This document shows, in pieces, positions 20,357 through 42,900 of a DNA stretch of 55,005 bases. Below the pieces are notes generated by a model, which did no database searches, had not been told where the DNA came from, and saw only the letters and a list, made by a program, of their open reading frames with translations. The first letter of the stretch is position 1. Every line of letters begins with the position of its first letter. A program made the translations under genes and the position numbers. Source of the stretch: Prorocentrum cordatum (taxonomy: Eukaryota); contig CAUYUJ010000191.1 of NCBI GenBank assembly GCA_963575745.1, positions 62,001 through 117,005 on the forward strand, written 5' to 3'.

Positions 20357-20387
<31 letters not shown>

Positions 20388-20453
20388 ATGAGGATGCGGA
20401 TGTTCATGATGCTGCTGCTGATGATGATGATGCTGCTGATGATGATGATGCTC

Positions 20454-20495
<42 letters not shown>

Positions 20496-21480: not shown

Positions 21481-22022
21481 AGGGAGTCAGGACATTCCGC
21501 TGGCAATTCTAAGTGATTGGGGTGGGGATTTGCCGTTGGAAGCCAGGGGGTAATGATGTTTTGCTGCAAGTTTTCGGCCGCTGGGGTGAGGTTTTTTGTT
21601 GCCGTTCGAAGCAATGATGCTGAAACCGCTGGGGTGAGAGTAGTGGGGCGAATATATTTTGCTGGCAGTTCGAGATGATCGCAGGGGGCGTGGGGGTAGA
21701 GGGTAATATTTGTGGGCAGTTCCAAACAAGGGTTGATTTCGCTTGTCATTTTCTGCCACGGGTTGAGGATCATGTGCTGGACTTGTATAATGCCCTGGTG
21801 GTCGTATTGCGTTGGCAGTGTTCAGCTGATGGGGTGCGGATATATTACTGGCTGCTTAGACCAGGGGAGACGGAGGGTTAGGAGAAAGGGTGGAACACGA
21901 GGAGGATCGGGAGGAGGAGGACGAGGCGGAGGAGGAGGAGAAGGAGGAGGAGGACCAGTGTAAGCCCAAGACGCATCAACGATGTTTTAATAAACCCTCC
22001 CTCCAGGCTCCATCTTCATAGG

Positions 22023-22219
22023 TGTGAATAAAACCCGTGTAATACCCTCATATATACTCCTTATCCTTACCTCTCCTGCGCCTGGCCGTTTGGGCTCAGG
22101 TATTGGGACAGATCGGTCAGACCTTTGATCGTGCAGGAGGGAAAGACATCCATCTATCCCTCCTTCCCTCTACCAACGGATCAGGGGTTCTGTACCCTTG
22201 TACTTCAACCCCACTCACA
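22023..22219 (+). repeat. 5' LTR
   Basis: tgtgaataaaacccgtgt...ccccactcaca, a direct repeat of 39769-39965. Confidence 0.97.
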
Positions 22220-22231
22220 GGTTATCAGCCC
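22220..22231 (+). promoter_or_regulatory. Primer-binding site of half-tRNA (Hemivirus) type, GGTTATCAGCCC
   Basis: Directly abuts the LTR, lacks the TGG of 3'-end tRNA priming, and is one mismatch from GGTTATGAGCCC (complement of the initiator tRNA-Met anticodon stem-loop). Confidence 0.75.
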
Positions 22232-22283
22232 TTTAAAGCTCACCTTCACCGAACCGCACGTTGTGATCTCGCACGCGGTCTCG

Positions 22284-25200: not shown

Positions 25201-26230
25201 TAGCCGTGGCCGATCACCATCCCGCGGATCAGGAAGCCAACGTTCTTCACAACGCGGGGGGTTTCGCTATGCAAGCGACTCGCGCCATGGACGTGACAAC
25301 CGACGCCAATGCGACCGATCTCGTTCAACATCCAGGAGGTCCCCAGACTCTCGCAGTCAATCGAGAAGTCGATGCGACAGATCTTCGAGATCTACCTCCC
25401 GAGGGCGAGACAATCGTGGCGGCGGACGCGGCAGTCCACGCGGCCGTGATAGATCATATGGTAGTGACAAAGGACGTGGCAGACGTTCCCCGAGCCATGG
25501 TTCGTCCCGTGGCTCACCCCACGCCAGAGCACGTTCTCCTGCCAACTTTCGACGTTCACGCCGTTCCGACCGCAGTTACGTCATCCGTGACAAGACCCTC
25601 ATGGCCAACACCAAGGCCACAGCGACATCTACCAACGCACGTCGTCGGATACGCTTCGACATACGTAACGTGGAATACTGTTTACATACCGTATCTGGCA
25701 GGGCCAGATTTGATAAATGGAAAGAGATGCCGAACGAGGGTGACATCGTCAATGTACCAGAACCGTTACCACAACGATGGTGGGATCAAAGTGCGAATGC
25801 TTTACGAGAATGTCAAACAGAGGCACAGCTATGGTACTCTGACCTATATGACTACCGACACAATAAAGAGTCGGTGGCCACACCAGCTGCGATCCGAAAA
25901 TGTGACGGCACTGTTAAGCAGTCATCAAAGACAGCCCAGACGAAGACAACGACAATGCAAGTCGACCCACCACGTTCGACTGCTGCATTGACACGATCCT
26001 GGGTTCTCGACAGTGGTTCTGCTCATCATATGCAGGGAAAACACGAACTAACGCAGACCGAATCGGATCGCATATCTATTCGCGAAGAGCATATTCTGGA
26101 AACCGCCAATGGTGATCGTACTGTCAACGAGCACTACGACATACGGCTACCCGAGGTTGGCTTACACAGTTCAGCCCTTGCCTTGCCAGACTGTCCATCT
26201 TTTCTATCAGTTGGGAAAGATCGAGGTTGA
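22284..26230 (+). pseudogene. Copia Gag (coiled coil, capsid-like region, 3 CCCH fingers, RS-rich region) and aspartic protease
   Basis: Main frame is ORF 22697-26230; the likely ATG at 22284 is reached via frameshifts. Fingers: CAAWKKGNCRNGERCKALH, CFDFAKRNTCTRGDKCNFPH, CKDFAQNKYPNGDACKCAH. Protease: WVLDSGSAHHM, LETANG, FLSVG. Confidence 0.85.
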
Positions 26231-27791
26231 TGGCTTTCGGCAGCTTTGGGATCCTGAGCTGGGCTACTTGCTTCAGGATCCGGGGGGCCAATGGTATAAT
26301 ATTCCAGTCAACAATCGAGTCCCAGAGTTACGACTCGACGACTTGACACTGATACCACCACCACGTTTATGCACTTCGTCCGCACCCCGACGTCGTCAGC
26401 GCAAGCGTTCATCCGCCCGCTGCAACGACATTTGTTGTTGCTGTCAAACTACAGAGCAGTCAACCACTGCAGACGAGCTACGGCCCCACATAGGGACCTG
26501 CCCCAAGAGACCACATGTCGGAGAGGGAGGAGGAGCACGGACCACCACGGTCGCAGAACCTCCCGACACAAACACAGACGAGCCTAACGTGGACACACCC
26601 ACCGACTCGCCTACGTCTCAGACGCAGTGTTCTCCTCCACAATGCGGGGGGCTAGTAGATATAGCTCAAGCAGATAATGACATGCCGACAGAGACACCCA
26701 CGCGAACGCATCGCGACAATGATCGAGTTCTCCCCAACAAACAGAAGAAACCGATCGACCCGATGCATTACATGACTCACAGCCCAAAACACCCTGACTG
26801 TGAGATCTGTTCTCGTACGATGGCGCAGAATGCCCCGTGTAGACGACAGCGCAAACCACATGCGCCGGCAGACCCCACCGACGAGGATAACGCCTACGAG
26901 GCTTTTGTCCCGAAGAAGTTTGGTGAGGCTTTAACTGCCGACCATATCGTGCTGGCCAAAGACGATGCCGCGGACAAACACGGCGACAAGTATGCACTTG
27001 TTCTCCTCGACAGATATACCGGCATCTTCATGGCCTACCCAGCACTACACAAAGACGCAGCTACCACAAAGGCATCCTTTCAACAGTTCATCGCCGCGAA
27101 CGATGAGGTGAAGCATATCTATACAGACAATTCTGGAGAGCTTCAGAAAGCTCGCCGCCAACTGGGATGGAGACACGACACGAGTGCGCCACATCGTCCG
27201 CAAACGAACGGTTTGATTGAGCGCGTCGTCAAAATTGTCATTCTCGGTGCGAGAGCTGTGTTACATATGTCTGGTCTGGGACACGAATGGTGGAAAGAGG
27301 CCATGCAAGCCTTTTGCTGTGGACACAATTTTGTGCATGCATCCACGGGCGTGGCTGTCCTCAATGAAGAGCATGCAGATAAGACAGCTCATGAAATACG
27401 ATTTGGCGAAAGCTTTCCCGGGCACTGCGTGCCATTCGGTGCTCGGATCTTTTGGAAATGCCTCAACCCCGAGATTAACAACGAGACTGCAAAGTTTAAA
27501 GAAAATGCTCGGGAAGGGTTATTCATGGGTTACCACTTACACTCTGGTGGACGATGGTCAGGTGACTACCTTGTCTTGGACGCGGCTACGTGCGCCAAGA
27601 ATCCTGATGGTGAACTGTGTCACGTGCACAGAGTCAAAGACATCATCATCCCTGATGGCAAGTTCACCTACCCAGTGAAAGAAGGTACTCTACGACATCA
27701 TAACCCTGAGGCACACGACGAGGTCAAGGCATCCACATCTCGCCCCTTGGGTGACAAACCGATGCCCGATCCTCCAATTTTCCTACCCTAG
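26109..27791 (+). pseudogene. Copia integrase
   Basis: HHCC HYMTHSPKHPDCEIC; D-D-E in LTADH, YTDNSGE and NGLIER; downstream GLFMGY motif. Frameshifted relative to its neighbours. Confidence 0.92.
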
Positions 27792-28569
27792 AGATTGGGA
27801 TGGCCCATCTATGATGACAACGGAGGACAACGCCGCTGATATCCAAACATCGGCCTCTGAAGATGCTGCACCAGCGCCGGAGCCCGACTACTGGGAACAG
27901 CGCGGATATTGCGTCATCAGACATATTCGTACTCCACGCAAGAAACTGTTCATTCCGACGGACGACGTCATGCACATACCTGTACCTGTTGATCAACTCG
28001 ATGTGACACGAGATTTCAAGACAACTTATATTTTTGAGGGAGAAAGTGACTTTCGAGATGTTTGGGATGGTGTTAGCGCCAACGACCACAGGGAATTAAG
28101 CGAGCCGTGGACAGGCACGATTCAATTCTATGAGCTCCCAAAAATGACGCCAGGCGGCAAAATGGTGGTTCGTGGGCGCGAGACACGTATGCAGACTACT
28201 ACACGTCTTGATCACATTCTTCCCGAGCATTGGAAAACACTCTCTCGTGGACAACAAAAGAAGGAAATCGAGTACGCCAACGACGTTAAACGGGCTCGTG
28301 AGATTCGCGACCGAGCTGCACTAAGAGTGTGGACAAGACAGGACAAACAGGTCAACAGTTTTCGTACCACTACATCCGGCGGACCCACATGGAATACTGT
28401 GGAACGACGGATTACATACGACACTGACAGTGGCGACGTCATCCGCGACGAAAACGTCAAAGGCGTGACAAACAAAGAAATACTGTATGCCAAATTACCT
28501 GGTGGGCCACGTGACATTACTACGGTACTGTACTACCGCCAATCACCACAACAGCGCGAGGGAGAATAA
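27751..28569 (+). pseudogene. Copia IN-RT interdomain region
   Basis: Same frame as the RT ORF at 28585, separated from it by a single TAA (28567-28569). Confidence 0.7.
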
Positions 28570-28584
28570 CGTGCTCTGGTACTT

Positions 28585-31500
28585 GTGGATAGTGAAGGAA
28601 CCGACTTTGGGGCCATGAACCCGCTCATACGCCAGTTCACCCAGTCGGTAGTAATACCAACTATGCCACGTGAGACCACCTACACGCCGGCACACAGGGA
28701 TAAAATACCTCATTCCTCATGGTCACGCCCGGCACTAGTTGCCAGAAACCTGAGTAAGAAAGAAGTTGCCGCAGAACCACGTGCACAAGAAGCCCTCCGA
28801 AAAGAATGCGAGATATTGGAAAAGAAACAAACGTGGATGTTGGAGACAGTTGCAGAAAAAACTGATATTGAGTCACGAGCGATCCGCACTGGGACGGAAG
28901 TTCATTTCTTCAATATCTTGGAGCTATCTTCAGTCAAACACGAGGAACTTCCACCTGATCTACGTAAATTCAAGGGCAGAGTGGTGGTTCAGGGCAATAC
29001 AGGCAAAGATGCAACTGGTTTGGCCGCCATATTCGCCGACGCCGCTTCCAGCGCTTCGTATATTGAGGCTTCCAAACTTTGCGATGCTACTGCATTATTG
29101 CCACAATATGCGGGAGAGCAAAGTGATGCACCTGGAGCCTACACGCAGGCATTATTATACGGCGACGGACGAATCGATCCAGTTGATACTTGGATTACCA
29201 TACCTAAATGGCGACAACCGACATCATGGTCAAAATGCAAGAATCCAGTGTGCCGATTACGATTGGCACTATACGGACACCCTCTCGCATGTGTCTTTTG
29301 GGAACGAAAATGCCGTACATGCTTAGAAAGCGTTGGTTTCGAGCCTATTTCAGGATGGGAATGTGTATGGAGGCACAACAAACTGGGACTGATACTTTCA
29401 GTATATGTGGACGACTTTAAATTAGCCGGCCCAGCTCGCAATCTACAGACTGGCTGGGATTATATTCGCAAAAGCGGTATTGACTTGGATCCACCTACTC
29501 CATACTCACAATATCTGGGTTGTGGACAACAAGCATATGATGTACCGCAGACTATCTTCGACAAAAGAATGTCCACCATACGCGCTATGTTGCCCGTACA
29601 CAATGAGAGAGATTACAATGCGGCTAAACAGGTTCGTGGAATTCGACATGATATGCTTGGTTTTACCGATCAGTGCATTGAACGATACCTGGAATGCGCC
29701 TCCAAGCGCGCCCAGGGACCAGGGTCACGTCGGAAACGATCCGACTCGCCGAGGACTTCGCGATCCAAATCGCCCGCATCCTCCGGGTCGGTCGCCAGAC
29801 CTACTAGTGTGCTCAACGCACGGCCACGATCATCCAGCCCAGCAAAATCGGTCGACACGACATCTACCACGACAGATCCCATACCCGTCACATACGATGA
29901 CCTACCTGACGCCGAGACCCCTGGCATCGAGGACACCTCCTTCACTGATTCCGACTATTCCGACGAGGGCATCCTTGGCCAGGACGCGGCGAGTGTACTA
30001 ATGAAGATCCTATACCTGGCACGTTGCTGTCGTTTTGATCTTCTACATCCAGTATGTATGCTGGCCAGAGAAATTACCAAATGGAATACTGCGTGTGATG
30101 AACGTCTACATCGATTGATATGCTACATCAAAACGACGCGTACACATTGTCTGCACGGATGGATAGGTGATTCGTCAGACAAGTTATCCATCATGCTCTT
30201 TACTGACGCCTCGTTCGCTGATTGCATTACATCATCAAAATCCACTACCGGCGTTTTTGCCGCACTTGTTGGACCCAACGCGTTCTTTCCAGTCAACGCT
30301 GTATGTAAGAAACAAACGGTTGTCTCACATTTATCTACTGAATCCGAGATCGTTGCTCTTGATTCAGCACTACGACTGGAAGGGTTACCACTACTCTCAT
30401 TCTGGGAAGCCGTGGTGGGAGTTGCCAAAACATGCAAAGAGAAGAATGCATGCCTGAGCTGCCATAGACACGTCGACCCGGCGATGTGTCCTACATTGGC
30501 AGCCAAAAAGAAGCGTAAACCATCGCCTCGCAAGGCACCCCCTACACGGGGATCTTCTCCTAGCCGTAGGCAACTACCGCTAAATACGGAATTACCTACG
30601 CCTCCAAAGAGACGTGCAATATCCCATGAGGGTGCAGTATTGCACGTGGATCCAGAACCGGCTCAAGAGATCAGTTATCCCAAAGTGCGTCTTATCGTCC
30701 TGGATGATAACCAGGCCGTGATCAAAATTGTCCAAAAAGGACTTGCTCCAGCACTTCGTCATCTTCATCGTACTCATCGTATCAACCTGGATTGGATATG
30801 CGAGACGTGCCAACTCGAACATATCGAGCTCAAATACGTAGGTACAAAGGAGCAGATCGCAGATATGATGACCAAACATTTCGAGACGAAGAAAGCAGAC
30901 CTTTGGAAGGATCTCTTGGAACACTCGCTCATATTTCCCGCTACTCCGGTACAGTGTCCTCCAAAGAAACCCTGGAAACCACTGAGAGGGCCTCGGGGGC
31001 CCGATGGTTTACCTCGCGTTGCGGAACCTCCCAAACTGGATGGATGCCCGGAAGTATGCAAAATATTACTTACAGAAAAAGAAAGATGGGGCGAAGTAGG
31101 ATCAGAATGTGGATTCCGATGCGTTGGACAAGCCAATCACGAGGGAATCTGCGCATGCATGTACCACATTGGCGTACCAGCCGCAGCTATTGCGTCGCGC
31201 ACACCTCGTTCACGCGCACGTTCCCCGCGCGGTAGACATCCCCGCCATCCTCCCTCGCCTCCGCAAGATGCAGAGAGATTTAGGACATTACTTATACGTT
31301 CATGCCGCAGCAATTTTACGACTCGAGCTACAAGGCTCACAGGCATCCTGTTCGCCGCGTGCGAGGCGAAAATAAGTGAGATCGGTTCTAATCCCGACGC
31401 CCCCATCCACGAGATGGATCAGGCACAGCCGCTCAACCTCATCGGCTGGCCCATCGGCTACGACACGGAGTGCGACCCGAACGCCAAGGACGACGACCGC

Positions 31501-33135
31501 GTGGGCTTCACGTACCACGCTCAAACTGGCCGTTCTCGTGATCCTGATGATGGTTACATATACATACATCAACGGCGTGCTGATCGCAGTGGAGAGTTCG
31601 ATCTCCGCGTGCCCGACGAATCCTCTATTCGAGAAATTGCCCGCTTTGCGTCCACCGACGTTAAGAGCTGGATCAATGACACGAGAGGATCAGTCGGCGG
31701 CGACGCCAACTATGACTACAGCACATTTACAGCTACACCGTGGCTATCATTCATGCGTGCTATGTGTATTCTTTTCAGTCTGTTCAATCGTAATCCGTCT
31801 GTACAAGAAAGTGTTCGTGGCTTACATGATCATTTGAACGCGGTGATCCCAGGAACGCACCGCAAGTGCCCACCAGAGAACTTTACGACGATGATATTGA
31901 AGACGGAGTGGCTGATGATTCGCAACGGTTGGTCCAATATTGGCAGTGCAGTACTGGGACAATATGCCGAGGACAGCGTTCAGGATACACAAATATACTA
32001 TTCAAATGGTCTTTGTGCACCATCCGATGTATACAGCAATGGATTGGTAACTCCATGCTATGCTCCTAAACATGATCGTACAACGGCCAAGTTACCTACA
32101 CGCCCACCTGGCGTTGCCAGGACATCGGATACATCTGGACACATCGGCCGCATTGTTGAGGATAATTTGGTCACCAACATGAGAGCATTTTCCGACCTTA
32201 ACCAAACAAGCAAATTTCGCCGCAAGCTCAGTGCATGGCTGACGGCGCGCGGAGGGTTTGGAGGTATCGGATCATACTCCAAGACGGTGGCAACACCATC
32301 CGATCATCCAGAAGGCTGGGTGGCAATATCAGATCATGACGGGGATATGACAAGTACCTATCGTTGGCAACCATACAACGAGGGCGACGACTTCTTCGGC
32401 GAAGCCGCTGACCAGATCGGGCAGATCGACCCTGGTCTTACCCCTGGCCCTGATGTTGACCCATTCGAGCTGGACCAATCAAAGTACAGCGCTTTCTGTG
32501 GTGGTCGTTTGGTTTCTACTCTTCTTTCAGATAATGGGTGGTGTTCCCTCATGCAAGAAGACTTGGGACTACTCTTGCATCATGCATTTGGTCCATCAGG
32601 GCACGCGTACAAATGGACCAACTTATACACCGACTCAACGTGGATTATGCAGGCCAAGAACAAGGCCAAGAGTGCAAAACAGAAGAAGTACCCAACTTAC
32701 GGCATCGACGAGCTCAACACTGCACAGAAGCGAGAAGAACTCGCCAAGGCATCAAACGTTGCTCTCGTACCGCTATTTATGCCGTGCCTCGACCGCGCGG
32801 AATACATGGGCGGCGCTACTCTCGAGCAATTCGCGACCATTATCCGCGACGGCATCATGATGTGGGCATTCTCCTTTGGCAATTATAAAGAATGGTTCAG
32901 ACAGAACGACACGCCGATTGGCCAAGATTGCGTTCGATTGCCAGAGGCTGGTGGAGACACCCGCTATGGTATGGAGGAACTACTTAAGCCGCGTTTCGAG
33001 ACACAGGAAACCCGTACCACAGCTATTCTCAACAACCAGTATGAGTGCACTCTCGAGCAGCGCAACATGATCAGGATGATCCGCGAAGCCGGGTGCCTCA
33101 TGTTCCACAGCGACAATGCTTTCATCAAAAAGTGA
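28585..33135 (+). pseudogene. Copia reverse transcriptase + RNase H, continuing in frame into the accessory extension
   Basis: RT: FKGRVVVQG, SDAPGAYTQA, LRLALYGHP, VYVDDF. RNase H: FTDASFAD, STESEIVA, LDDNQAVI, QIADMMTK (~30860). About 750 further codons follow with no stop. Confidence 0.93.
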
Positions 33136-33660
33136 TGCGAATTAAACGAGACAATCTGGGCCTACTGGGCCAACGATTTTCCATCATATGTGAAACAAAG
33201 ACATTATTGCTGGGGCCTCAATGCTATGGTGGTATGGAGCGCGAATGACATCGCATGCGCCAACCACGGACAGAGCACCGTGGACATGCGTCGACATCAG
33301 AATCGTGCACCTACCGACGTATATGAGCTCCAGAAAATGGAATGTGAGGATGGCGTCCCGACGCTCATGCCAGTACACGTACGCGTGGACGTATCACGTT
33401 TTGTCGATGTGATGCAGTACTTCCGCTGTCCCACAGTCATGGGGCCTGGCAAAGCAGCACAATGGGGCGTACATCCGAACTTTGATCACCGCACGAACGA
33501 CCTGATCAATATTATGCAAAATCGTGGTATCACTGTTCTTCCATCAGATCACTGGGTGGAAACATACGATAGGATTATTCCGCAGGCTTGGCATGCAAAA
33601 CAGAACAACCATAACATGGCGATGTTTACAACACAGTTCTGCGACGCAGTATGCTATCGT
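32615..33660 (+). pseudogene. SGNH/GDSL hydrolase-like domain in the copia extension
   Basis: Ordered motifs LYTDS (block I, ~32623), MGGATL (block II, ~32806), VVWSANDI (block III, ~33229) and WH (block V-like, ~33589), all in one frame across a single TGA at 33133. Recognised by eye only. Confidence 0.45.
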
Positions 33661-33767
33661 AACTTCTGCGCTTTGATTCAATCACTGCCCTCTCAACCAT
33701 ATCCATTCAGGGCGCCATTACTGATTCCTGTCACGGATGAGCAGGCCCACCACAGGCCAAAGAGATC

Positions 33768-34973
33768 ATGGCTGCTCTCGATTTCAGAGAAGAGATGACA
33801 AACGAATGGAAAAGAGATCTCAGCCTCACGACGTTGATGACACAGACGGCAAGCGAAATGGCTCAGTGTGCGTGGATGGCATCCTGTGCCGATGGTACGT
33901 TGCTGGCATCACTGCCTGCTGACGCAGGCGACACAACGGAACCTATTCCAGGAATGCCGAAACGGACACCAGCACCTGACCCTAGCGAGCCAGACGAAGC
34001 CATCCCTGAAAATGATCCATGGGGCGTGGCATACGACGACTTGTTCCAGTACCTCATGCTGTTGATCAACGACTACCCTGGGGCTTGGGCATCCTGGCAT
34101 TCAGTCGAGAAACAAGAGCTCCTCCATCCCAAGATCATCAAAACGGTTGAAGATGCACATGCAGTTACTTGGGTTGTGTTCGAGCATTTTTTACAACAGA
34201 TTGCTGACTTGGATGGAGATGATAACGCGACCAAATCACGACTCACCGTGGAAAACAACAGGTTGACTTCTCCTTGCATCGGCCCTGCTGCCGAGAACGA
34301 GCGGAACATCATAGCATGCAAAGCATTCTTCAGGCAGAATGCACTAGATCGCGTGGCATTGGGCCATGATCCTGATGTTCCGACATCCGTGTGGCGTGCA
34401 GCGGCTGATACAGAACAGCCAGCTCCGCCAGGTCCATTGCCTGATCCACTGCAACCTGGACCGCAATCGATAGACGTGCCACAGCCATCGATTCCTGGAC
34501 CAACAGCAGACCAGCAGCCAGCAGATCAGCTCCCAAAGGCTGAGGCGGTACCGATCCCTGACGACGGCACTGACCTAGAGGCCATGGAGCTGGAGGCAAC
34601 TCCTGCCGAAGAGGAATCCTCTCCACATGAGATGAATTTATTATCATGGCAGGACAGCTGCGAGCGTTCCATGTACGAGGACATCAGCCAGGTCGGGATA
34701 TTCGATAACGCATGCACTATTCGAGAGTGGAAGCTGCAAGCAGGCATCAAGGATGACCATCCGTACGTATGTCCAATGCTGAGGGGTACACGCGCGACCA
34801 ATGGATTCGCCTGCCTGGAAAACGAAGATTGGTACGAGCAACTGTTGCACGATGATTGTGTGATTGCTCACGCGCCTGATATCGCACAGTCTGGTTGCTT
34901 TCCAGAATGGAAGTGGATATCGTTACCAAATTACGACGATGTACGTTATGGTCCCGAGTTAATTGAAGAATAA
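33768..34973 (+). pseudogene. Copia extension, unknown domain plus Pro/acidic linker
   Basis: 401-aa open frame, in frame with the downstream Tpt1-like segment across one TAA. Confidence 0.65.
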
Positions 34974-34994
34974 TGGCTGGGAACAAACAAATAC

Positions 34995-35820
34995 ATGAGC
35001 AAAGACATCGCGACCATGTTACGCCACGAGATTCACTACAAAAAGTTCTGGATCAATCAATTTCACGATAGACGTATCAACATTTGGGAGAAAACAACAG
35101 ATCGTGAATGGAAGATTCCAAGCATTTGGACATCCTTTCAGGAAATGGTTCAATGGAAATTCAAAGATCGCAAAGATAAGCACAATGGACTGTCCATGGA
35201 CGCTGCAGTGTCACACTTCAAGAAAGATGGTGCAAATCATGGATATGCCGATTGGAACGATTACTACCCGATCTTCATCATTCGTGCGTTCCAGAAACAT
35301 ATTGATCCGCAGAAAAATAGAATTGAGATATACGCCAAACCAATCCCCGAGGGAGATGACCCCAGCTGTTTCGATTGGAACAGCGTCATTGCCATTCGAT
35401 GTGTTGGAGGTCGCAGTTGTGTCAACCCACTTTCCAAACCATGGAATATGGGATGGGAGAGCCTGCGATGGACAGATGTGAAATACCTCCACCACGGCAC
35501 AGCACTCCGTGCTTGGCGCAACATCTTGAAGACAGGGGCCATTCCAGGCTACAGCGGCCCATCTTCTCAGAGAGACAAGCATCACAAACCATCGCAGCGC
35601 TCGGAGGCATTCTTCAGTTCCAGCACATATTTAGACAATGTCCAGAAGAATCCCCACACCTCAGTAGAGTCATATAAGTTCAATAACTACAAGAACGAGG
35701 TCGAGCTAGTGATCAATATGGAGATCGCCACAAAAGCAGGTTGCAGATTTTGGCTGGGCGCTCAATGAGCTATCATGACAGAGGACGTGGTTCCAGCTGC
35801 GGCAGTTATTGCAATTCGCC
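34995..35820 (+). pseudogene. Tpt1/KptA-like RNA 2'-phosphotransferase (ART-fold) domain in the copia extension
   Basis: SKDIATMLRH (SKxxxxxLRH), KNRIE (KxRF), IRCVGGRS (IRAxQGHS), YLHHGT...AWRNILKTG (HGT...W..I...GL), RSEAFFS (RxHVHxS), LVINMEIATKAGCRFWLGAQ*AIMTEDVVP (IDxxxAxxxGxxFxxSxNGVILT..VP). One in-frame TGA at 35766. Confidence 0.8.
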
Positions 35821-38800
35821 GCCTCAAGCCACATCACATGCACGGCCAGCAGATATGGCCAGGCGGCGCCACATGGGATTACCCGCCATTGGCCGCGAGA
35901 CCGCCATTGAGCAAGTACGAGATTTGCGCCTACCTCCCTGGAGAGTTCATCGAAGACCCTCCTGGGATTGCACCTGCTGACACGGATCAGAACATGGAGC
36001 AGCCAAGGACAACGTCAGCATCAGCAACTTCGGCTCAGCTGGGGGCAACCCCTGTCGGCCGTATATCTGCAGCCGATGCCTTGGATGAGCAAATGGTCCG
36101 TGCTATGATTCGGGACACCAATCACAAAGCAGATGATAAAGAGTGGTTAATTGCCCTGTCATGCTGCCGAGAGGCTCTTCGACCTATTACATCAACGATT
36201 ACACAAAAAGATTGGGATCGTCGCCCTGCATTTAATGATGTTCGCATGGGGGACTTCATCATCATTAAGAATGGGGGATCTATCAAATGTTATCATTATG
36301 ACAATCACTACCCCAAGGGCAATCACAATACCAAGATCCCCATGACTAAGGGCCACATATATGGTCCAATCATTCATTTCGGCGTCTTTGACAAGTTCTT
36401 CGCGGTACAGATACCTATTCTCAACTACGGTTTACGATGGGTAAACATATGGTACAATGACAAAAGCATGCCTCTCAAGGGCGTTGTCTTTGCATTGCCA
36501 ATTCGTATCGACGAACATGCCATTGACCCGACATATATGGATACTGTCCTGGAGGGACCATCTTCATGCCGTGACAAAATACTTCAGCACAAACTGATGG
36601 CAGTTTGCCATATCTTGGTATGCCGAGCATTTATAGACCACGCATTCCACGTACACCGACCAGACGGCCCGCTCTTCGGACACCCGATCCCGAAGAGCTG
36701 GTGGCCACACCTGCTGAAGATACCGCTCCTACGGACGATGGACCTCATCAAACTGTAGGCTCATCTGATGAACCTTTGGTTGCCGTTATCGCGGACATAT
36801 CGAGCATATCGCTCACCGCTGAAGAAAAAGCAGCAAACGACAATATGAGAGCAGATCTATCAGCAGAAATCCAAGCAGATGAGCACGTTGATGCGAGCAT
36901 ACTCGACAACATTATTGACCCGCCAGAAGACTTCCTCAACCACCCAGATTACGACCCAGACGAGGATTCAAGGTGGATTAAACAGTCAGATGGCCGCCGC
37001 ATATAGCGCTGGACGTCGGAGTTGTTGGTGGATTCGCCTATGATAAAGATGAAACAAATCATCGAGATACACAGTGGCGCGGACAGAATTGTAATGGACA
37101 AAACACAATCGCACTCACGATTTGAGATTCAATTCGGATCGAAAGCATGGAATGCAGAGTCATACCATTCGAATTATGATCATACCCACAAATGGGCACG
37201 TGACTTGCCAATTTGCAGTGCAGACCACTTTTTCAAAAAGTTGGTGCGCAACCTGGACCCAGAGACCATCGAGGAGTCGACTACAGGCGTCTTTCAATGG
37301 ATCTCCAAAGTATATCAAACCCTTTTGATGGACAGTATTGCGGAGCTTCGTGACTTCACAAAATATGCCATCCATCAGAAACATCCTGCACTCCAAACGT
37401 TGCGTGATCTATTTAAACATTGTATCGACACATTCGGTAATCCAGACTTCCCCGTATGGAAGGAGCTGGTGGAAACACCTGCCGCGCCGCGTGATCACGG
37501 CGCGGAGCAGGATATTCCCCAGGACCCAGGCAGTGTTGCATCCGCAGCTCCTGATCAAGAAACCATGGTACGTATCATAGCCGAGCAGACGGGAGTCAAA
37601 CGCGAGGAGGGCGATAACGAGTCCGCCTTGCAGGAGAAGGCTCGCCGTCTTCGTACTGAAAACATATGCCATGGTGGTACTGAGGATGCGGACAACGACA
37701 CGACAGAGTACATAGGACTGCCAGGGGAAAGATTGTCTAGGATCGAGATCGAGGGATTGAGTAGATCAATCGCTTCCCGGCCGGACGCCGAGATCAACCG
37801 CGAAGCCATTGATCAGATCGGCCGTAGTCTTGCTCGTGGTCAGGATACTCGCTGGGGATCTCGTGAGCACCTCACGACGGAGGGAGCCCCAGAAACGATC
37901 CTGCATGATATCGCGCTATGTCAGAATTGCGGTCGAGACTTATCCCTTGGGATCGTCACAGGTGATGGTACCCTTTGTGACATCTTTTGGCAGTACACCG
38001 TGGCCGTAGGTGCTACGGGTAAGAGTGCCGCCGTCCAGAGCGACCTAGCATACCTCCAGAAGCTGACCAACTGGATCAAGATGACGCTCTCCCAGGATGA
38101 CATCACGAGGTACATGAGAGACGGAGCGCAAGTCATTATGACGGGCGCGCGATCACACCCAGGCAATGAGAAAGATTCGCTGAGGAGTATGGCTAATGTG
38201 TCTAGGAAGAGGTATCAGAAGTGGATCGAATCTGGTAGCCCTCCTGCACACGAGTGCAGACTGATGGGCGAGGCTAGTGACGACAGACCTCTGTACTACC
38301 CATATGCCAATCTCGTTCAGCGCTTTCTCAACGATTTGAAGTTCCACCACCAAAGGACAGGCGCTCGCGTGAACGTGGGCAAGAAGGCCTGGAGCGTGGA
38401 CGACATGCGTGATGCATGTGCGATCCTCGATGTCAGCATCAGGACAGGACAAGCTGGTCGGAAGAAATGGTGGCTGAACGAGGGCCGACTCGACAGGCAA
38501 ACGCGGCAGGCTCGCGGACTTGTCACGATTGCCCTCCCTAGAAGGGATGGCACCCGTGAGAAAGTCACGCAGCGCAAGCTTGCTGCGATTGCTAACGAAT
38601 TGTTGGGCTCCCTCGATCCGTCGCATACCGGCCAGAGGGGGGTTGATTCAGGGATGAGAACCGATCCGATCGAACCTGATACACACTCCCATCAGTCTGA
38701 GGATGCCATGGAGCCGCGCCATCCGCCGCCGCCGCCGCGCCCTGCCCCTGGCGATGCTGCACAGTCCAGCGCCTCTGGCGCGACGGACCACATGCCCGCG

Positions 38801-39085
38801 GGGCCACGCGCCAAGCGAGCGCGTACCACAGATTACGCCGCATACTGGCGCGACGACCTTGAGGGCAGTCATTGGGGCCTCAGGTATTGGAGCTACTACA
38901 TCAACTGTTGGATCTACATCGCGATGAACAACGATGAGTTCGTATACATCCACGACATCCAGTACAATGATTGGTTTCGTCACTGGATCCCGAGGACATA
39001 TTGGGAGACATTCACGACGAGCTACGTGACGTACAATGGCCAGAGGATGTGGGACCGCAGGTTCTACAAGAACGGCAGCGCGTAG
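35821..39085 (+). pseudogene. Copia extension, C-terminal ~1,090 aa of unknown function
   Basis: ORFs 35775-36758, 36605-37006 and 37022-39085 are linked by one frameshift and one in-frame TAG. Includes CQNC and a Trp/Tyr-rich tail. Confidence 0.65.
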
Positions 39086-39750
39086 TGAGTCGGCCGCAAG
39101 GCCCACCGCTCAAAGGCTTGAGCTTCATTATAATCAAAGTTCGCCTTGAGCGGTGGCTATTCCATACTTCTAGGCCACTTCATTATACAACACAAGTGGC
39201 CACACAAACAAACATCTTTTGCGATGGCCGAGGCAGCCTCCTAAGGAGCAATGCCAACGGGAGTCGCCAAATAGAATTTATCTTCATGCAGCTTTCGTGT
39301 TTGTCAACACGACATTTCGTCTGGCCAGACATTTGCTTTTACATATAGTTGCGTTCCGTAGCGCGATCGTGTTCATCAACGCGATCTCAGCGTGCATATT
39401 CATTACAACATAATCACATTGCGTTGAGAATAATCTGACAGCTGGTGGCAACACCTGCCTCGCAAAAGCGAGGCAGATTACAAGTTGCTTTATTGCTCAG
39501 ATCTTCTTTCTCCGCCCACCCTTGTCTCATTCTTCTCCGCCCTCGAGTGCCGAAGCGTTTTGGGGGGCGCGCCGAGGGGGCGCCAAAGTGTGTTTAGCCA
39601 AGAAATGGGGACCCAGGGTGTTCCTTCTTACTTCACTTTGCAGCTGGGGCTATACTGACTTTAAGCTCAGCTGCCTGCAGACTTAAGGATTAAAGGAGTA
39701 AAAGGGTGACGGATTCTTTTCCTCTGTTCCCGAGTCCTACCCTCGCGGGC

Positions 39751-39768
39751 GGGATTCGGGACGGGGTG
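39751..39768 (+). promoter_or_regulatory. Polypurine-tract-like sequence
   Basis: gggattcgggacggggtg immediately 5' of the 3' LTR. Confidence 0.55.
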
Positions 39769-39965
39769 TGTGAATAGAACCTGTGTAATACCCTCATATA
39801 TACTCCTTATCCTTACCTCTCCTGCGCCTGGCCGTTTGGGCTCAGGTATTGGGACAGATCGATCAGACCTTTGATCGTGCAGGAGGGAAAGGCATCCATC
39901 TATCCCTCCTTCCCTCTACCAGCGGATCAGGGGTTCTGTGCCCTTGTACTTCAACCCCACTCACA
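39769..39965 (+). repeat. 3' LTR
   Basis: tgtgaatagaacctgtgt...ccccactcaca, followed by the TSD atagg. Confidence 0.97.
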
Positions 39966-42900
39966 ATAGGTCCCTACAATAATTATTGTCATTCTGAGAA
40001 GTGACCCTCTAGAAGATAACCGTCTGACAATTCTCAGTCTTGCCAGCACTCGATTTCTGGAATTTCAATGGGACTTCAACGCCTCGGATCAAAATGATTG
40101 CTGCGCCCTGACAGTTCTGAAGTGATCCTGATCACCATGCCTGGGACTTCAACGCCGAGGATAAACGTGACTGCTGCGTCCCGACAATCTTCAATCGTGC
40201 CAGAACGCCGTTTCTGGGACTTCTTCAACCATCTGAATTTTCAAATGCTGTAAAATGTCTACACGAATGTGCGCGGCGCAATTGCGAGAACCACATTTTG
40301 AAAAAGGAACGTGCCGCTTCGGCCGTCTTGGGCTGTATGAAGGCGGCAACCGCGAGAACACGAACATCATGTTTTCTTTATCGAGTGAGTCAATGAACGT
40401 TGCATTCTGAGGCCTTCTTGGGGCGTCTCGAGGTAGTCTTCGGCCGTCTTGGGGCCACTGTGGGCTTCTGTTTCGTCGTCTTCAAACCATGTTCAGCCGT
40501 CCTGGAGACATCTTAGCGCATCTGGAAGCCATCAGGGCTCTTATGGACTCACTTGCTCTTGAACACATTTTGGAGCCCTCCTGAGCTGGCTGTGGGCCCC
40601 CAAAGGCAGAGGGACTCGGCCGTCCAGGGGTCCTCCAGGGGTCGTTTAGGGTCGTCTGTGCTCCCCCCCCCTCAAGCGGGCGCTGTAGGGTCCAGGGGGG
40701 GGGTCTGGGGGGGTCAGGTGGGACGGGGGCGAGGACCGGGATAAATCGCTCCAGAGCGTTCCAGAGCGCTCTCAGAGCGGTCCAGAGCGCTCTGGAACGG
40801 CCCCAGCGCCCGATACAGTTCAGCATGTTCCAGAACTGCCGGACCCCGGAGTTCCCTGATCTGCCTGGGTCTTGTCCCTGCCCTGGGATCGTCTTAGGAG
40901 GGGTCGGGAGTAGCTCACACGCCTGGAGGCCCCCAAGTGCTCCCGCTTTGCCTGCGCCCGTTCGCTTCGCACAGCGGTCGCGGCCGAGTCAGGCAGAGCG
41001 CTGTGGTCGCTTCCCCCCCTCCCCCTCCACAAACAGAACCGCCTGGCTCTTCTGCACATGGGCCAGCTTCTCCTCCTCCTCCTCCTCCTCCTCCTCCTCC
41101 TCCTCCTCCTCCTCCTCTTCCTCCTTCTTGATAGTGTGCTAGAAGCCGGGCACGGCGCCGGCCAGGATGTTGTGGCACGGCTGGAGGACGCTCAGCTGGT
41201 ACCCGAGGATCGGGGAGGACAGACGATGGAGAGACGCCCACGAGCGGCCTGCTCCACGAGCGGTCGGTCCTCCCGCCTGCCTCTGCTCGAGCCCCGCCGC
41301 CCGCGCTCCGCCAGCGCCCCGCCGGGCAGCCCCTGGCCGCCACGGCCCGCGCTCGTGATCGCGCGCGCACGAGCGGCGGCCCGCGCCCCTGGCGCGCCGC
41401 GGCCAGGCGGCGCCGCTTGCGGCGAGTGCTTCGGGGGAGTCGAAGAAGACAGATCGCCATGCCCATCGGTCGCTGAGAGTGGGCATTTCTGGCTTCCCGG
41501 ATCCCAATCTACTCTGGGCGCCTTCCTTGTTCAAAAGGGTCGGTTTTTTTTGCTCCTTTCCTCCCCTTCAGGGGGCGGGCGGAAGCCCAATCTTCTTCCG
41601 ACGCCTTCCTACTTCATGTTTCTACCCACTTCTTCCGACCGATGGGTAAACATAAACATGCGGCGCTCCGCGCGGATTCCTGGTGCCCTTGGCGCCGCCC
41701 CTGGCGCGCTCCGCGCGCCGGGGAGGGGGGGGCCAGCGCGGATCCAAGAAGTCCGCGTGGAGCGCCAAAAATTTACGTTTATGCCGTGCTTTCCTCTTCT
41801 AGGGAGGGGGAGGCTCGCCAGCGGCTCGCGTTTCCGGCCGACAGCTCGCGCTCCTGCTGGGGCGTCGGTCACCCCTGGGGCGTCGGCCGACCCTGCGGGT
41901 CCAGTCGCTGCTGGGGTGTCGAACACCCCGGGTGGGGTTCACTTGGCTGCAGGCATCCTTCAAAGTTTTGACCCCCCGCCAGGTTTTCAGGGACTTGACC
42001 TGCAGGGCTTTGCTAGGGCTCACGCGTGGACGTCTGTAGTTTCGGCCGATCCTCGTCTACGTCGTCGTTCTGGCGGTTTTGGGCCGCTGCTGGAGGTTCT
42101 CCTGGCTGCGGGCGCGGCTCGAAAGGCTGGCCAGGATGCACCTCCAGAGGCGCCCGCGGGGACAGGTCTGGGGCGGAGGCCTGGGTCGGGAGCGGCGCGA
42201 GGAGGGGAGACCCTCGAAGGGGGCAGGACTTCTGCTGTTCGGCTGGTTTCCGCGCCCGTGCTCTCGCGCCCACGGGCCTCACGCCCTGAGCCTGGCTCCC
42301 CCCGCTCCCTGGGGCCCCTGCCCCCCTGTGCCCTCCCTCCCGCCTTGCGCTCTCTCGCCCCCTGTGCCCGCTTCGTCTGCCCCATGCAGCCCAGTCCAAG
42401 CTTGACCGCGACGGGTCCGCTCCGCATCGGCCACGCGCAGAGGGGGGGCAGAGGGGGAGGGGGAAGGCTCTGCTCAGCAGGACCCCTGCTTCTTAGAAGG
42501 CGCGGGCCTTCTGTTGAGACGTGAGGCTGGCGCCTTCTGAGAAGCAGCCTCCCTTGGAGGAGCCTTCCCCCCTCCCTCTGCCCCCTCTTCTGCGCGCTGC
42601 CGTTTCAAAGTCGAAGAGAGGTTCCGCATGCGCTCGGCCTCCTCGCTGGGCGGTCGCACTCGCTTTGCGGACCCCCTGGTGGCCTCGAGCGGCATCTCGG
42701 AGGCGCGCCGCCCCTGCTCGATCCGGGGCTGCTGCTTGGCCACGAGGCCCGTTGGAGGACCCCCCCGGCGGCTTGTGAGCAGGCCTGTGCCTTCGCAGAG
42801 GGCGGTGACGGGGCTGGGCCTGGACCGCCGGCGTCTGGAACCACAGTCAGCACGGCAGTTTTTCCTCCATCCTGCGGCATGTTGTGTGTGGTGCTTCGGG

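What the first reader, a model, noticed from the sequence alone, without database searches (positions are those of the whole stretch)
34995..35820. Tpt1/KptA-like NAD+-dependent 2'-phosphotransferase domain encoded inside a copia LTR retrotransposon polyprotein
Seen: between the LTRs and downstream of RNase H, one frame carries in order SKxxxxxLRH, KNRIE, IRCVGGRS, HHGT..W..I..G, RSEAFFS and INMEIATKAGCRFW...IMTEDVVP. Established: this matches the motif series of Tpt1/KptA, with an RNA lobe (Arg-His-Arg-Arg catalytic tetrad) and an ART-fold NAD+ lobe (HGT). Tpt1 removes RNA 2'-phosphates, and some members ADP-ribose-cap 5'-phosphorylated nucleic acid ends. I know of no described copia element carrying this domain. 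Inference: it could process the element's own RNA, primer or cDNA ends, or counter host RNA-cleavage defence. This copy is decayed (TGA at 35766, GHS changed to GRS).
Basis: partly seen in the sequence, partly recalled or inferred. Interest (0 to 1): 0.92.

Follow-up and report, generated by a model that had tools for sequence, protein, structure and literature searches.

The report
Tpt1-like enzyme domain inside giant retrotransposon
An 18-kb jumping gene of the copia type, apparently from a green alga, carries inside its giant protein a divergent copy of the RNA-repair enzyme Tpt1/KptA, which has not been reported for retrotransposons; this particular copy is dead.

Summary
Window 34995-35834 (+) encodes a 280-residue domain. 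With homologues as alignment it folds like Tpt1/KptA: the top 19 Foldseek PDB hits are all Tpt1, and VIA gives Z 11.6. It matches a KptA profile in hhalign (prob 90-92%, E 2e-6 to 8e-8; 11 shuffled or reversed controls all worse). It stays below Pfam's PF01885 cut-off (20.6 vs 26 bits).

The domain lies in a complete 17,943-bp LTR element (22023-39965). The element has 197-bp LTRs, a 5-bp target duplication and the order gag-PR-IN-RT-RNase H, followed by about 8 kb of extra coding sequence.

The domain is family-wide. There are 35 relatives at 35-82% identity, most of them labelled Pyramimonas sp. Hundreds of diverged contig pieces in four public runs cover it. R10, H11, R109 and R202 (the Arg-His-Arg-Arg tetrad) are kept. 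The stops at 34971, 35766 and 36756 are private to this copy.

Function is inferred, not shown: NAD+-dependent attack of an RNA/DNA phosphate, meaning 2'-phosphate removal or 5'-phosphate capping on the element's own nucleic acids. The closest precedent is a KptA domain embedded in RNA-virus polyproteins (PMC9503650). I rate it a new variant of a known kind.

The parts
22018..22022 (+). Target-site duplication ATAGG (5' side)
   Evidence: Identical 5-mer directly outside both LTRs
22023..22219 (+). 5' LTR, 197 bp, TGTGAATA...CACTCACA
   Evidence: Self-BLAST 97% to 39768-39965; alignment; 6 mismatches of 197
22220..22231 (+). Primer-binding-site-like GGTTATCAGCCC directly after the 5' LTR
   Evidence: Read from the sequence. 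The resemblance to the tRNA-iMet PBS of copia elements is recalled, not tested.
22691..26230 (+). gag-like region with CCCH zinc finger (25013-25072), and aspartic protease motif LDSGSAHH (26006-26029)
   Evidence: PF00642 E 1.4e-6, 28.5 bits, above the cut-off of 20.5; motif position
26052..27791 (+). Integrase (HHCC 26766-26840; core 26931-27227)
   Evidence: PF00665 rve E 3.6e-6, 27.6 bits, below the cut-off of 32.6; motifs located
28570..30882 (+). Reverse transcriptase (RVT_2; YVDD 29404-29418) and RNase H (30202-30882)
   Evidence: PF07727 E 1.1e-5, 25.6 bits, below the cut-off of 31.6. The RNase H motifs TDASFAD / STESEIVAL / LDDNQAVI / IADMMTKHF are read from the translation; the consensus they resemble is recalled.
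30883..39085 (+). About 8.2 kb coding extension of pol. It is open from RT through 33132 in one frame, then interrupted by stops at 33133, 34971, 35766 and 37004 and by frame changes near 33741-33798 and about 36590.
   Evidence: ORF list; frame path; no family hit outside the Tpt1-like part; GC 0.50-0.51 like the rest of the element against 0.60-0.69 in the flanks
34995..35834 (+). Tpt1/KptA-like domain, 280 aa: RNA lobe about 1-145 with an insertion of about 50 residues, NAD+ (ART) lobe about 145-280. Tetrad candidates: R10-H11 (35022-35027), K107-x-R109 (35313-35321), R202 (35598-35600). HGT at 35493-35501. Private TGA at 35766.
   Evidence: Pfam PF01885 E 5.1e-4; hhalign; AF2 model pLDDT 66.7; Foldseek and VIA; column conservation
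39745..39768 (+). Purine-rich tract (…GGGACGGGGTG) directly before the 3' LTR; candidate polypurine tract
   Evidence: Read from the sequence; function inferred
39769..39965 (+). 3' LTR, 197 bp
39966..39970 (+). Target-site duplication ATAGG (3' side)

Best explanation
SHOWN: Window 34995-35834 encodes a divergent member of the Tpt1/KptA (RNA 2'-phosphotransferase / nucleic-acid phosphate ADP-ribosyltransferase) fold. It is a fixed, family-wide part of the extended pol polyprotein of a giant (17.9 kb) Ty1/copia-type LTR retrotransposon. The element is highly repeated in a host whose closest database label is the prasinophyte green alga 'Pyramimonas sp.'. The copy in this window is dead. It has private stop codons at 34971, 35766 and 36756, a 1-base deletion near 36590, His->Arg in the GGHS motif, and ten private amino-acid-changing differences against three silent ones inside the domain.

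INFERRED: In intact copies the domain is made as part of Gag-Pol. It therefore ends up in the virus-like particle next to the genomic RNA and the reverse transcriptase. There it uses NAD+ to let a phosphate monoester on the element's own nucleic acid attack ADP-ribose C1''. The tetrad R10-H11-R109-R202 would hold the phosphate and HGT the NAD+ adenosine.

My preferred concrete role is removal of internal 2'-phosphates. Plant/fungal-type tRNA ligase leaves these marks when it reseals broken RNA, and 2'-phosphates inhibit reverse transcription. The enzyme would clean an 18-kb template before copying. The second option is one-step ADP-ribose capping of 5'-phosphate RNA or cDNA ends.
For: Fold. 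The AF2 model built with 63 sequences has pLDDT 66.7, with the C-lobe at 70-95. Foldseek against PDB gives 19 matches with E <= 0.001, all Tpt1/KptA; the first other family appears at E 0.16. VIA against 48,161 chains gives three chains with Z >= 8, all Tpt1: 7yw2_A Z 11.6, rmsd 2.5, 108 aa; 9ld3_A Z 10.8; 7yw4_A Z 9.3. In the second look the top 19 rows are all Tpt1, including whole-chain alignments: 9ldg_A Z 11.0 with 152 aligned of a 177-residue chain over model 1-275, and 8tg3 with 158 aa.

Sequence. PF01885 scores E 5.1e-4 and is the only family hit by more than one of the 35 members (8 of 35). hhalign against a 30-sequence KptA profile gives prob 89.8%, E 1.8e-6, 140 columns. The global alignment gives prob 92.2%, E 7.8e-8, 171 columns. 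It pairs S2-K3...R10-H11 with KptA S13-K14...R21-H22 and K107-x-R109 with K67-x-R69. The best of 11 controls scores 18.9 against 42.1 for the real alignment.

Tetrad definition: PMC6333775, passages. Conservation among non-gap residues: R10 12 of 12, H11 12 of 12, R109 19 of 23, R135 20 of 20, H167 22 of 26, R202 26 of 27.

Element: LTRs, target duplication and domain order. One open frame runs from RT/RNase H about 720 aa into the extension. Composition is uniform across the element.

Family-wide. There are 35 relatives at 35-82% identity, and 32 of 34 hits in the second search are labelled EukProt Pyramimonas_sp.. Relatives at 38-59% identity also keep the sequence upstream and downstream of the domain. 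Contig pieces numbering 1341, 343, 1260 and 253 from four runs cover all 30 of 30 bins of 34000-37000. They carry a sense codon wherever the window has stops at 34971, 35766 and 36756.

Mechanism background. Tpt1 chemistry and 5'-P capping: PMC6182162, abstract. 2'-phosphates inhibit reverse transcription: PMC5824351, passages. KptA embedded in RNA-virus polyproteins with a proposed genome-RNA repair role: PMC9503650, passages.
Against: The domain is below Pfam's gathering score (20.6 and 17.8 bits against 26). NCBIfam gives no hit at E <= 0.1. Neither phmmer nor the family profile finds a Tpt1 chain in the PDB sequences. No canonical-looking Tpt1 appears among the 35 phmmer hits, judged from their sequences; the library carries no names.

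The N-lobe of the model is poor (pLDDT < 50 for residues 11-43), and it carries about 50 extra residues between the RH and KxR motifs. The fourth tetrad Arg (R202) is not paired with KptA R125 by hhalign; I assign it only by its register three residues before the strand AFFS/VHLS. The His of VHLS, the second position of the H-H-V triad (PMC7955679), is Phe/Tyr here. The positions aligned to the NAD+-phosphate cage Arg-Arg/His of Tpt1 are Asn/His/Gln-type residues.

No copy with an uninterrupted RT-to-Tpt1 frame was seen, because only short fragments and contig pieces of other copies were available. No activity, expression or packaging data exist.
Confidence: 0.6

Rival explanations
1. Pseudo-enzyme or binding module. 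The domain keeps the Tpt1 fold and phosphate-gripping arginines but no longer turns over NAD+. It would serve the polyprotein as an RNA-end or phosphate (or NAD/ADP-ribose) binding module, for example to select or hold the genomic RNA.
For: The second triad His is replaced by Phe/Tyr (triad from PMC7955679). The residues aligned to the NAD+ phosphate-cage arginines of CthTpt1 (PMC6333775) are not Arg. There is a large insertion in the RNA lobe. The domain is below family thresholds.
Against: HGT, which binds the NAD+ adenosine ribose, is kept in 22 of 26 non-gap residues, and the whole tetrad is kept. Phe/Tyr at the second triad position is the normal state in H-Y-E ADP-ribosyltransferases (table in PMC7955679), so it is compatible with NAD+ use.
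Confidence: 0.17
2. Conflict enzyme with another target. The domain is an ADP-ribosyltransferase that modifies host protein, host RNA or DNA bases (as DarT does), or reverses or blocks a host defence, rather than servicing the element's own nucleic acid.
For: After Tpt1, the next structural neighbours are DNA/RNA- and protein-targeting ARTs: Scabin Z 7.0, DarT Z 5.1-5.7, Rhs toxin domains Z 5.8-6.0. Viral ARTs are mostly fast-evolving conflict enzymes (PMC9503650, passages).
Against: Tpt1 chains score well above all other ARTs (Z 9-11.6 against <= 7.6). The Tpt1-specific RNA lobe with SK...RH and KxR is present and conserved. Those residues recognise phosphate monoesters (PMC6333775).
Confidence: 0.13
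3. Recent one-off capture of a host TRPT1 gene fragment, or a foreign element nested in this single copia copy, evolving neutrally.
For: This copy has stops and a frameshift. No intact full-length sister was retrieved.
Against: Many diverged copies carry the domain with sense codons at the window's stops. Relatives down to 35-44% identity keep the motifs and the flanking sequence. The domain is far from canonical Tpt1. One open frame links RT/RNase H to the extension, and composition is uniform. No internal repeats bound the extension.
Confidence: 0.04

Closest known systems
Cellular Tpt1 / KptA / TRPT1 (Pfam PF01885; PDB 7yw2, 7yw3, 6e3a, 8tg3, 9ld4)
   Same: Two-lobe architecture. The motif series SK...LRH, KxR, IRxxGGHS, HGT and F-x(4)-G-x-x-(M/L)-T is shared. 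The Arg-His-Arg(-Arg) tetrad is conserved. It is the best structural match (Z up to 11.6) and a profile match at E 2e-6 to 8e-8.
   Different: Below the Pfam cut-off. About 50 extra residues in the RNA lobe and a 5-15 residue longer loop before the fourth Arg. The VHLS His is Phe/Tyr. The cage arginines are not evident. It is embedded in a polyprotein of several thousand residues instead of being a protein of about 180-250 aa.
KptA domains embedded in polyproteins of positive-strand RNA viruses (Botrylloides leachii nidovirus, Beihai picorna-like virus 117), described in PMC9503650
   Same: A Tpt1/KptA domain sits as one module of a replicase-type polyprotein of a genetic element that replicates through RNA. 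The proposed role there is NAD+-dependent processing or repair of the element's own RNA (passages). The nidovirus pp1ab segment and a Melipona quadrifasciata virus 1a nonstructural protein are fold matches of my model (E 7.1e-4 and 1.1e-4).
   Different: Those are RNA viruses of animals, not LTR retrotransposons. That paper's main text has 0 occurrences of retrotransposon, retroelement or transposon. Sequence relatedness to the present family was not tested.
Tpt1 genes of large DNA viruses (Bodo saltans virus Tpt1-Nudix, Sylvanvirus, Hyperionvirus, sawfly nucleopolyhedrovirus) and jumbo phages
   Same: Mobile genomes that carry their own Tpt1. They are fold matches at E 4.9e-6 to 3.8e-3 and are discussed in PMC9503650.
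   Different: They are free-standing genes or small fusions, annotated as Tpt1 in the library. They have no reverse transcription step.
LTR retrotransposons with accessory domains or extra ORFs (chromodomain integrases, env-like ORFs of some copia/gypsy lineages, retroviral dUTPase); recalled, not looked up here
   Same: A core gag-PR-IN-RT-RH element that has added a further functional module.
   Different: None of the recalled examples is an NAD+-dependent nucleic-acid enzyme. The extension here is unusually large (about 8.2 kb, roughly 2,700 codons) and otherwise without recognisable domains.

Membership tests
Tpt1/KptA (Pfam PF01885, PTS_2-RNA) | Score at or above Pfam's gathering cut-off (26 bits) | tested here: not met
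   17.8 bits for the unbroken 264 aa. 20.6 bits, E 5.1e-4, profile 73-176 of 177 with X at the stop. 8 of 35 relatives hit it, best E 7.9e-5. NCBIfam gives no hit at E <= 0.1.
Tpt1/KptA (Pfam PF01885, PTS_2-RNA) | C-terminal NAD+ lobe with ADP-ribosyltransferase fold, closest to Tpt1 | tested here: met
   7yw2_A Z 11.6, rmsd 2.5, 108 aa, model 145-280. 9ld3_A Z 10.8. 7yw4_A Z 9.3. Other ARTs reach Z <= 7.6. Model pLDDT is 70-95 in this lobe.
Tpt1/KptA (Pfam PF01885, PTS_2-RNA) | N-terminal winged-helix RNA lobe | tested here: inconclusive
   Whole-chain alignments exist: 9ldg_A 152 aa over model 1-275, Z 11.0; 8tg3 158 aa; 7yw3 150 aa from model residue 47. hhalign covers KptA 12-184. However, model residues 11-43 have pLDDT < 50 and the lobe has about 50 extra residues.
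Tpt1/KptA (Pfam PF01885, PTS_2-RNA) | Arg-His of the catalytic tetrad in the SK...LRH helix (CthTpt1 R18-H19; PMC6333775) | tested here: met
   Global hhalign pairs S2-K3...R10-H11 with KptA S13-K14...R21-H22. R10 and H11 are kept in 12 of 12 non-gap relatives. The local hhalign and Pfam alignments do not reach this motif.
Tpt1/KptA (Pfam PF01885, PTS_2-RNA) | Third tetrad Arg in the K-x-R motif (CthTpt1 K66, R68) | tested here: met
   Both hhalign runs pair K107-N-R109 with KptA K67-K-R69. R109 is kept in 19 of 23 and K107 in 17 of 23 non-gap relatives.
Tpt1/KptA (Pfam PF01885, PTS_2-RNA) | Fourth tetrad Arg before the VHLS strand (CthTpt1 R121) | tested here: inconclusive
   R202 is kept in 26 of 27 non-gap relatives. 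It lies three residues before strand AFFS, which hhalign pairs with KptA VHLS. But hhalign places the loop gap so that KptA R125 faces residue 187.
Tpt1/KptA (Pfam PF01885, PTS_2-RNA) | HGT motif binding the NAD+ adenosine ribose | tested here: met
   H167-G-T in the window. His is kept in 22 of 26 non-gap relatives. hhalign pairs YLHHGT with FLYHGT. The role of HGT comes from PMC6333775.
Tpt1/KptA (Pfam PF01885, PTS_2-RNA) | H-H-V triad: second His in the beta-2 strand (HLA/VHLS) | tested here: not met
   The aligned position is F206. The neighbouring 207 is Tyr 14 / Phe 10 in the family. Triad definition from the table in PMC7955679.
Tpt1/KptA (Pfam PF01885, PTS_2-RNA) | NAD+-dependent 2'-phosphotransferase or 5'-phosphate ADP-ribosylation activity | not testable with these tools
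   Needs enzyme assays or yeast tpt1-delta complementation.
Ty1/copia-type LTR retrotransposon | Direct LTRs ending TG...CA, flanked by a short target-site duplication | tested here: met
   197-bp LTRs with 6 mismatches, TGTGAATA...CACTCACA, and a 5-bp ATAGG on both sides.
Ty1/copia-type LTR retrotransposon | Domain order PR - IN - RT - RNase H (integrase upstream of RT) | tested here: met
   PR motif at 26006, rve core at 26973-27200, RVT_2 at 28966-29523, RNase H motifs at 30202-30882.
Ty1/copia-type LTR retrotransposon | RT of the RVT_2 (copia) type at Pfam's cut-off | tested here: not met
   PF07727 is the only RT family hit, with E 1.1e-5, but 25.6 bits is below the cut-off of 31.6. This is a divergent lineage, and no RT phylogeny was made.

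The most novel reading that the evidence does not exclude
Giant retroelements carry their own RNA-repair finishing enzyme. An 18-kb genomic RNA is often nicked and then resealed by the host's plant-type tRNA ligase, which leaves 2'-phosphate scars that stall reverse transcriptase. [quoted passage not shown] That would be the first NAD+-dependent nucleic-acid-modifying step in a retrotransposon life cycle. It would also be a natural system for finding out what non-tRNA substrates Tpt1 enzymes act on.
Probability: 0.2. Interest if true: 0.85.

Novelty: new variant of a known kind. Interest (0 to 1): 0.62.

Why it matters
[quoted passage not shown] A high-copy retrotransposon family that has kept a Tpt1-like domain through deep divergence suggests a phosphate-bearing RNA or DNA intermediate that matters for reverse transcription or for surviving host RNases. 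That claim can be tested by mutating the domain in an active copy. The finding extends the short list of replicating RNA elements with a polyprotein-embedded KptA (two RNA viruses, PMC9503650) to retroelements. It also flags an unusually large copia-type element (about 18 kb) whose remaining 7 kb or so of extra coding sequence has no recognisable domain.

Tried and rejected
- Single-sequence AF2 model: pLDDT 33.6, unusable.
- phmmer of the read-through protein against PDB sequences: 23 weak matches (best E 0.09), none Tpt1. The family profile against PDB sequences gave 0 matches at E <= 10. I treat both as a lack of sensitivity, not as evidence against.
- Search for longer (959-2735 aa) relatives: none at E <= 0.001. 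This is weak evidence, as the tool itself says, so no intact polyprotein was recovered.
- Metagenome scan: 2 loci at 25% identity. L003 is a high-GC contig whose long frames look bacterial (DinB-like, cyclophilin-like and RsgA-like by eye), and the match lies opposite one of them. I rejected it as spurious; L004 was not inspected.
- Viral contig scan: nothing.
- Whole-genome search: no genome is held for this window.
- Sequencing runs: no RNA holder is listed, so there is nothing to say on expression.
- tblastn of nine element pieces against the window gave only self-hits, so there is no second copy in the window.
- Earlier findings of this scan: none for this genome or sequence. A word search gave only Tpt1-like domains in bacteria, phages and giant viruses.
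- dN/dS between copies could not be done, because only protein fragments and non-downloadable contig pieces of other copies were available. The 37 best-supported differences between the window and the other contigs split into 21 amino-acid-changing and 16 silent. That split speaks to the decay of this copy only. 532 further differences were not shown by the tool.
- NCBIfam: 0 hits for all seven extension pieces.
- PHROGs: only phrog_5470 'RNA 2'-phosphotransferase' at E 0.054 and an unknown family at 0.038.
Full report
**1. What is in the sequence.**
One reading frame from 34974 to 36758 is interrupted only by TGA at 35766. It contains, in order:
- SKDIATMLRH (34998-35027)
- KNRIE (35313-35327)
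- IRCVGGRS (35394-35417)
- HHGT (35490-35501)
- RSEAFFS (35598-35618)
- INMEIATKAGCRFW (35712-35753)
- IMTEDVVP (35772-35795), after the TGA

**2. The surrounding element.**
Self-comparison finds one long direct repeat pair, 22022-22219 and 39768-39965, 97% identical. Read base by base, the LTRs are 22023-22219 and 39769-39965. Each is 197 bp, with 6 mismatches between them, and each starts TGTGAATA and ends CACTCACA. The 5-mer ATAGG flanks them on both sides. A PBS-like GGTTATCAGCCC follows the 5' LTR, and a purine-rich tract precedes the 3' LTR.

Between the LTRs lie:
- a gag-like region with a CCCH zinc finger (PF00642, E 1.4e-6, above its cut-off)
- an aspartic protease motif (26006)
- an integrase (PF00665, E 3.6e-6)
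- an RVT_2-type reverse transcriptase (PF07727, E 1.1e-5; YVDD at 29404)
- RNase H motifs (30202-30882)

The order PR-IN-RT-RH is that of Ty1/copia. The integrase and RT scores are below Pfam's cut-offs, so this is a divergent lineage.

The RT/RNase H frame stays open for about 720 further codons, to 33132. Coding-like frames continue to 39085. They are broken by stops at 33133, 34971, 35766 and 37004 and by two frame changes, near 33741-33798 and about 36590. GC is 0.50-0.51 across 28-38 kb, against 0.60-0.69 in the flanks. No internal repeat bounds the extra 8.2 kb. The Tpt1-like stretch is thus part of a pol extension of a 17,943-bp element, not a nested insert.

**3. Is it Tpt1-like?**

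*Sequence.* Pfam gives PF01885 at E 0.0037 (17.8 bits) for the unbroken 264 aa. With X at the stop it gives E 5.1e-4 (20.6 bits, profile 73-176 of 177). Both are under the 26-bit cut-off. When the 35 family members are scanned one by one, PF01885 is hit by 8 of 35 (best E 7.9e-5). No other family is hit by more than one member.

A profile of the family (63 sequences) was compared with a profile of 30 KptA proteins. The local alignment gives hhalign probability 89.8%, E 1.8e-6 over 140 columns. The global alignment gives 92.2%, E 7.8e-8 over 171 columns. One reversed and ten column-shuffled KptA profiles score at most 18.9, against 42.1 for the real one. Direct sequence searches of the PDB found nothing, and NCBIfam found nothing. 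The relationship is therefore remote.

*Structure.* The single-sequence model failed (pLDDT 33.6). With the 63-sequence alignment the model reaches pLDDT 66.7, with 70-95 in residues 150-280.
- Foldseek against the PDB gives 19 matches at E <= 0.001. All are Tpt1/KptA, from mouse, human, Clostridium thermocellum, Aeropyrum, Pyrococcus and Thermococcus. The first other family appears at E 0.16.
- An independent all-against-all VIA search of 48,161 chains gives three chains with Z >= 8, all Tpt1: 7yw2_A Z 11.6, rmsd 2.5, 108 aa; 9ld3_A Z 10.8; 7yw4_A Z 9.3. Other ADP-ribosyltransferases follow at Z <= 7.
- In the second look the top 19 rows are all Tpt1. Several alignments span both lobes: 9ldg_A with 152 aligned residues of a 177-residue chain over model 1-275, Z 11.0, and 8tg3 with 158 residues.

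**4. Active-site residues.**
In CthTpt1 the essential tetrad is Arg18-His19-Arg68-Arg121. Lys66 helps, and HGT (101-103) holds the NAD+ adenosine ribose (PMC6333775, passages).

Global hhalign pairs the window's S2-K3...R10-H11 with KptA S13-K14...R21-H22. Both hhalign runs pair K107-N-R109 with KptA K67-K-R69, and YLHHGT with FLYHGT.

The fourth Arg is less certain. R202 lies three residues before the strand AFFS, which hhalign pairs with VHLS, just as KptA R125 does. But the loop is 5-15 residues longer, and hhalign places the gap differently.

Conservation across the family, counting non-gap residues:
- R10: 12 of 12
- H11: 12 of 12
- K107: 17 of 23
- R109: 19 of 23
- R135: 20 of 20
- H167: 22 of 26
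- R202: 26 of 27
- E204: 26 of 27

There are two departures from Tpt1. The His of VHLS, the second position of the H-H-V triad (table in PMC7955679), is Phe/Tyr. The residues aligned to the Arg139/Arg140 phosphate cage are not Arg.

**5. Is it family-wide?**
phmmer against 1.84 billion representatives finds 35 proteins at E <= 0.001, of which 19 are <= 1e-10 and 5 are <= 1e-30. They are 35-82% identical, and most are short fragments. In a second search, 32 of 34 hits carry the EukProt label 'Pyramimonas_sp.', which suggests a prasinophyte green-algal host.

Relatives at 38-59% identity (P0010, P0023, P0025, P0028) also match the window upstream of the domain (…APDIAQSGCFPEWKW…). Others (P0007, P0024, P0026, P0030) match downstream (W-x-Y-P-P-L…). 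The domain therefore sits in the same larger protein in diverged lineages.

Contigs of four public runs from four studies were laid on 34000-37000. They gave 1341, 343, 1260 and 253 pieces at >= 85% identity, spread over all identity classes and covering all 30 of 30 bins in every run. One of these runs may be the source of the window.

At 34971 every laid contig has G where the window has T (6, 3, 13 and 6 contigs), which reads GAA instead of TAA. At 35766 every contig has G (17, 10, 13 and 3 contigs), which reads GGA instead of TGA. At 36756 the contigs have C (4, 0, 2 and 1). Several contigs (3, 1, 3 and 2) have an extra A after 36590, where the window's frame changes. The protein fragments agree (…LGAQGAIMTE…).

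Within the domain, the well-supported differences between the window and the other contigs are 10 amino-acid-changing (including the stop) and 3 silent. That is what a dead copy drifting neutrally would show. The His-to-Arg change in GGHS also fits: the family has His 9, Gln 4, gap 4, other 4 of 21 at that column.

I could not show an uninterrupted RT-to-Tpt1 frame in any other copy. I also could not compute dN/dS, because only fragments were available.

**6. How it most likely works.**

*Shown:* the fold, the conserved phosphate-binding and NAD+-binding motifs, the position in the pol extension, and the persistence in many diverged copies.

*Inferred:* as part of Gag-Pol, the domain would be packaged with the genomic RNA and the RT. 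Tpt1 chemistry is the attack of a nucleic-acid phosphate monoester on NAD+ C1''. It is followed either by transesterification that removes an internal 2'-PO4, or it stops there and leaves a 5'-phospho-ADP-ribose cap on RNA or DNA (PMC6182162, abstract).

Plant/fungal-type tRNA ligase reseals broken RNA and leaves a 2'-PO4 (this much is in PMC5824351). That the same ligase type operates in plants and algae is recalled, not looked up. 2'-phosphates inhibit reverse transcription (PMC5824351, passages). My preferred reading is therefore template cleaning of a very long (18-kb) genomic RNA. End capping is the second option.

The same logic was proposed for the KptA domains embedded in the polyproteins of Botrylloides leachii nidovirus and Beihai picorna-like virus 117 (PMC9503650, passages). 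The nidovirus segment is a fold match of my model (E 7.1e-4), as are giant-virus and baculovirus Tpt1 proteins.

The rivals are a non-catalytic binding module, an ADP-ribosyltransferase aimed at host targets, and a one-off capture. The last is largely excluded.

**7. Novelty.**
Five library searches (and the in-paper search) found no paper linking Tpt1/KptA/PF01885 to a retrotransposon. The two papers checked that hold both PF01885 and 'transpos…' (PMC4053983, PMC7955679) mention them in unrelated contexts. The third paper returned by that search was not opened. The library lacks most subscription journals and Repbase-type reports, so this is absence in what I could search, not proof.

Given the RNA-virus precedent and the known habit of LTR elements to add modules, I rate this a new variant of a known kind. 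Earlier notes of this scan record Tpt1-like domains in phages and giant viruses but none in retroelements. I used those as leads only.

**8. Verdict.**
- Observation: confirmed.
- Interpretation: supported as to identity and context. Function is untested.
- Membership in PF01885 by its own threshold: not met. It is best described as a divergent Tpt1/KptA-like family specific to these elements.
- Interest: 0.62.

Noticed in passing
window 30883-34994 and 35835-39085: About 7 kb of apparently coding pol extension besides the Tpt1-like domain has no hit in Pfam, NCBIfam or PHROGs. Whether it hides other RNA-repair folds (ligase, kinase, 2H, Macro, Nudix) is open.
   Followed up: partly
window 25013-25072 (and about 24800-25100): The gag-like region carries CCCH-type zinc fingers (PF00642, E 1.4e-6; weaker Torus/DUS3L CCCH hits) rather than the CCHC knuckle I recall as usual for LTR elements. 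It also has a long coiled-coil-like N-terminal part and an Arg/Ser-rich tract.
   Followed up: no
window 1-725, 3661-6133, 17418-18162, 19404-20739, 49855-50976, 52729-55005: Kilobase-long degenerate trinucleotide arrays (GTA / AGT / ATG / GAT units, 64-83% matches) occupy a large share of the window.
   Followed up: no
window 895-3278 and 51139-51942: A satellite of about 102 bp (GGGGGGCTGCGATCTGTGAAACTGTCGCCAC...) is present near both ends of the window. Other tandem arrays have periods of 90/178 bp (6952-7887) and 83/166 bp (43961-44348).
   Followed up: no
window 16300-16382 (+): U6 snRNA match just above Rfam's gathering score (47.3 vs 44 bits, E 7.9e-9), covering model positions 1-79 of 105. 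It is possibly a truncated U6 gene or pseudogene.
   Followed up: no
window 21899-22016 vs 43534-43651: The 118 bp directly upstream of the element's insertion site recur at 83% identity 3.6 kb downstream of the element. The element may have inserted into another repeat.
   Followed up: no
protein P0027 (776 aa): A distant relative matches only the N-lobe half of the domain (query 8-123, 36% identity). It continues into unrelated sequence that by eye looks like WD-repeat and cyclic-nucleotide phosphodiesterase parts. It is probably a gene model that swallowed an element fragment. Its source is unknown.
   Followed up: no
BFVD matches of model mb02d12488049: A 'Nonstructural protein' of Melipona quadrifasciata virus 1a (E 1.1e-4) matches the model alongside the Botrylloides leachii nidovirus replicase. 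The passages I read of PMC9503650 name only the nidovirus and a Beihai picorna-like virus, so this may be a further RNA virus with an embedded Tpt1-like domain.
   Followed up: no
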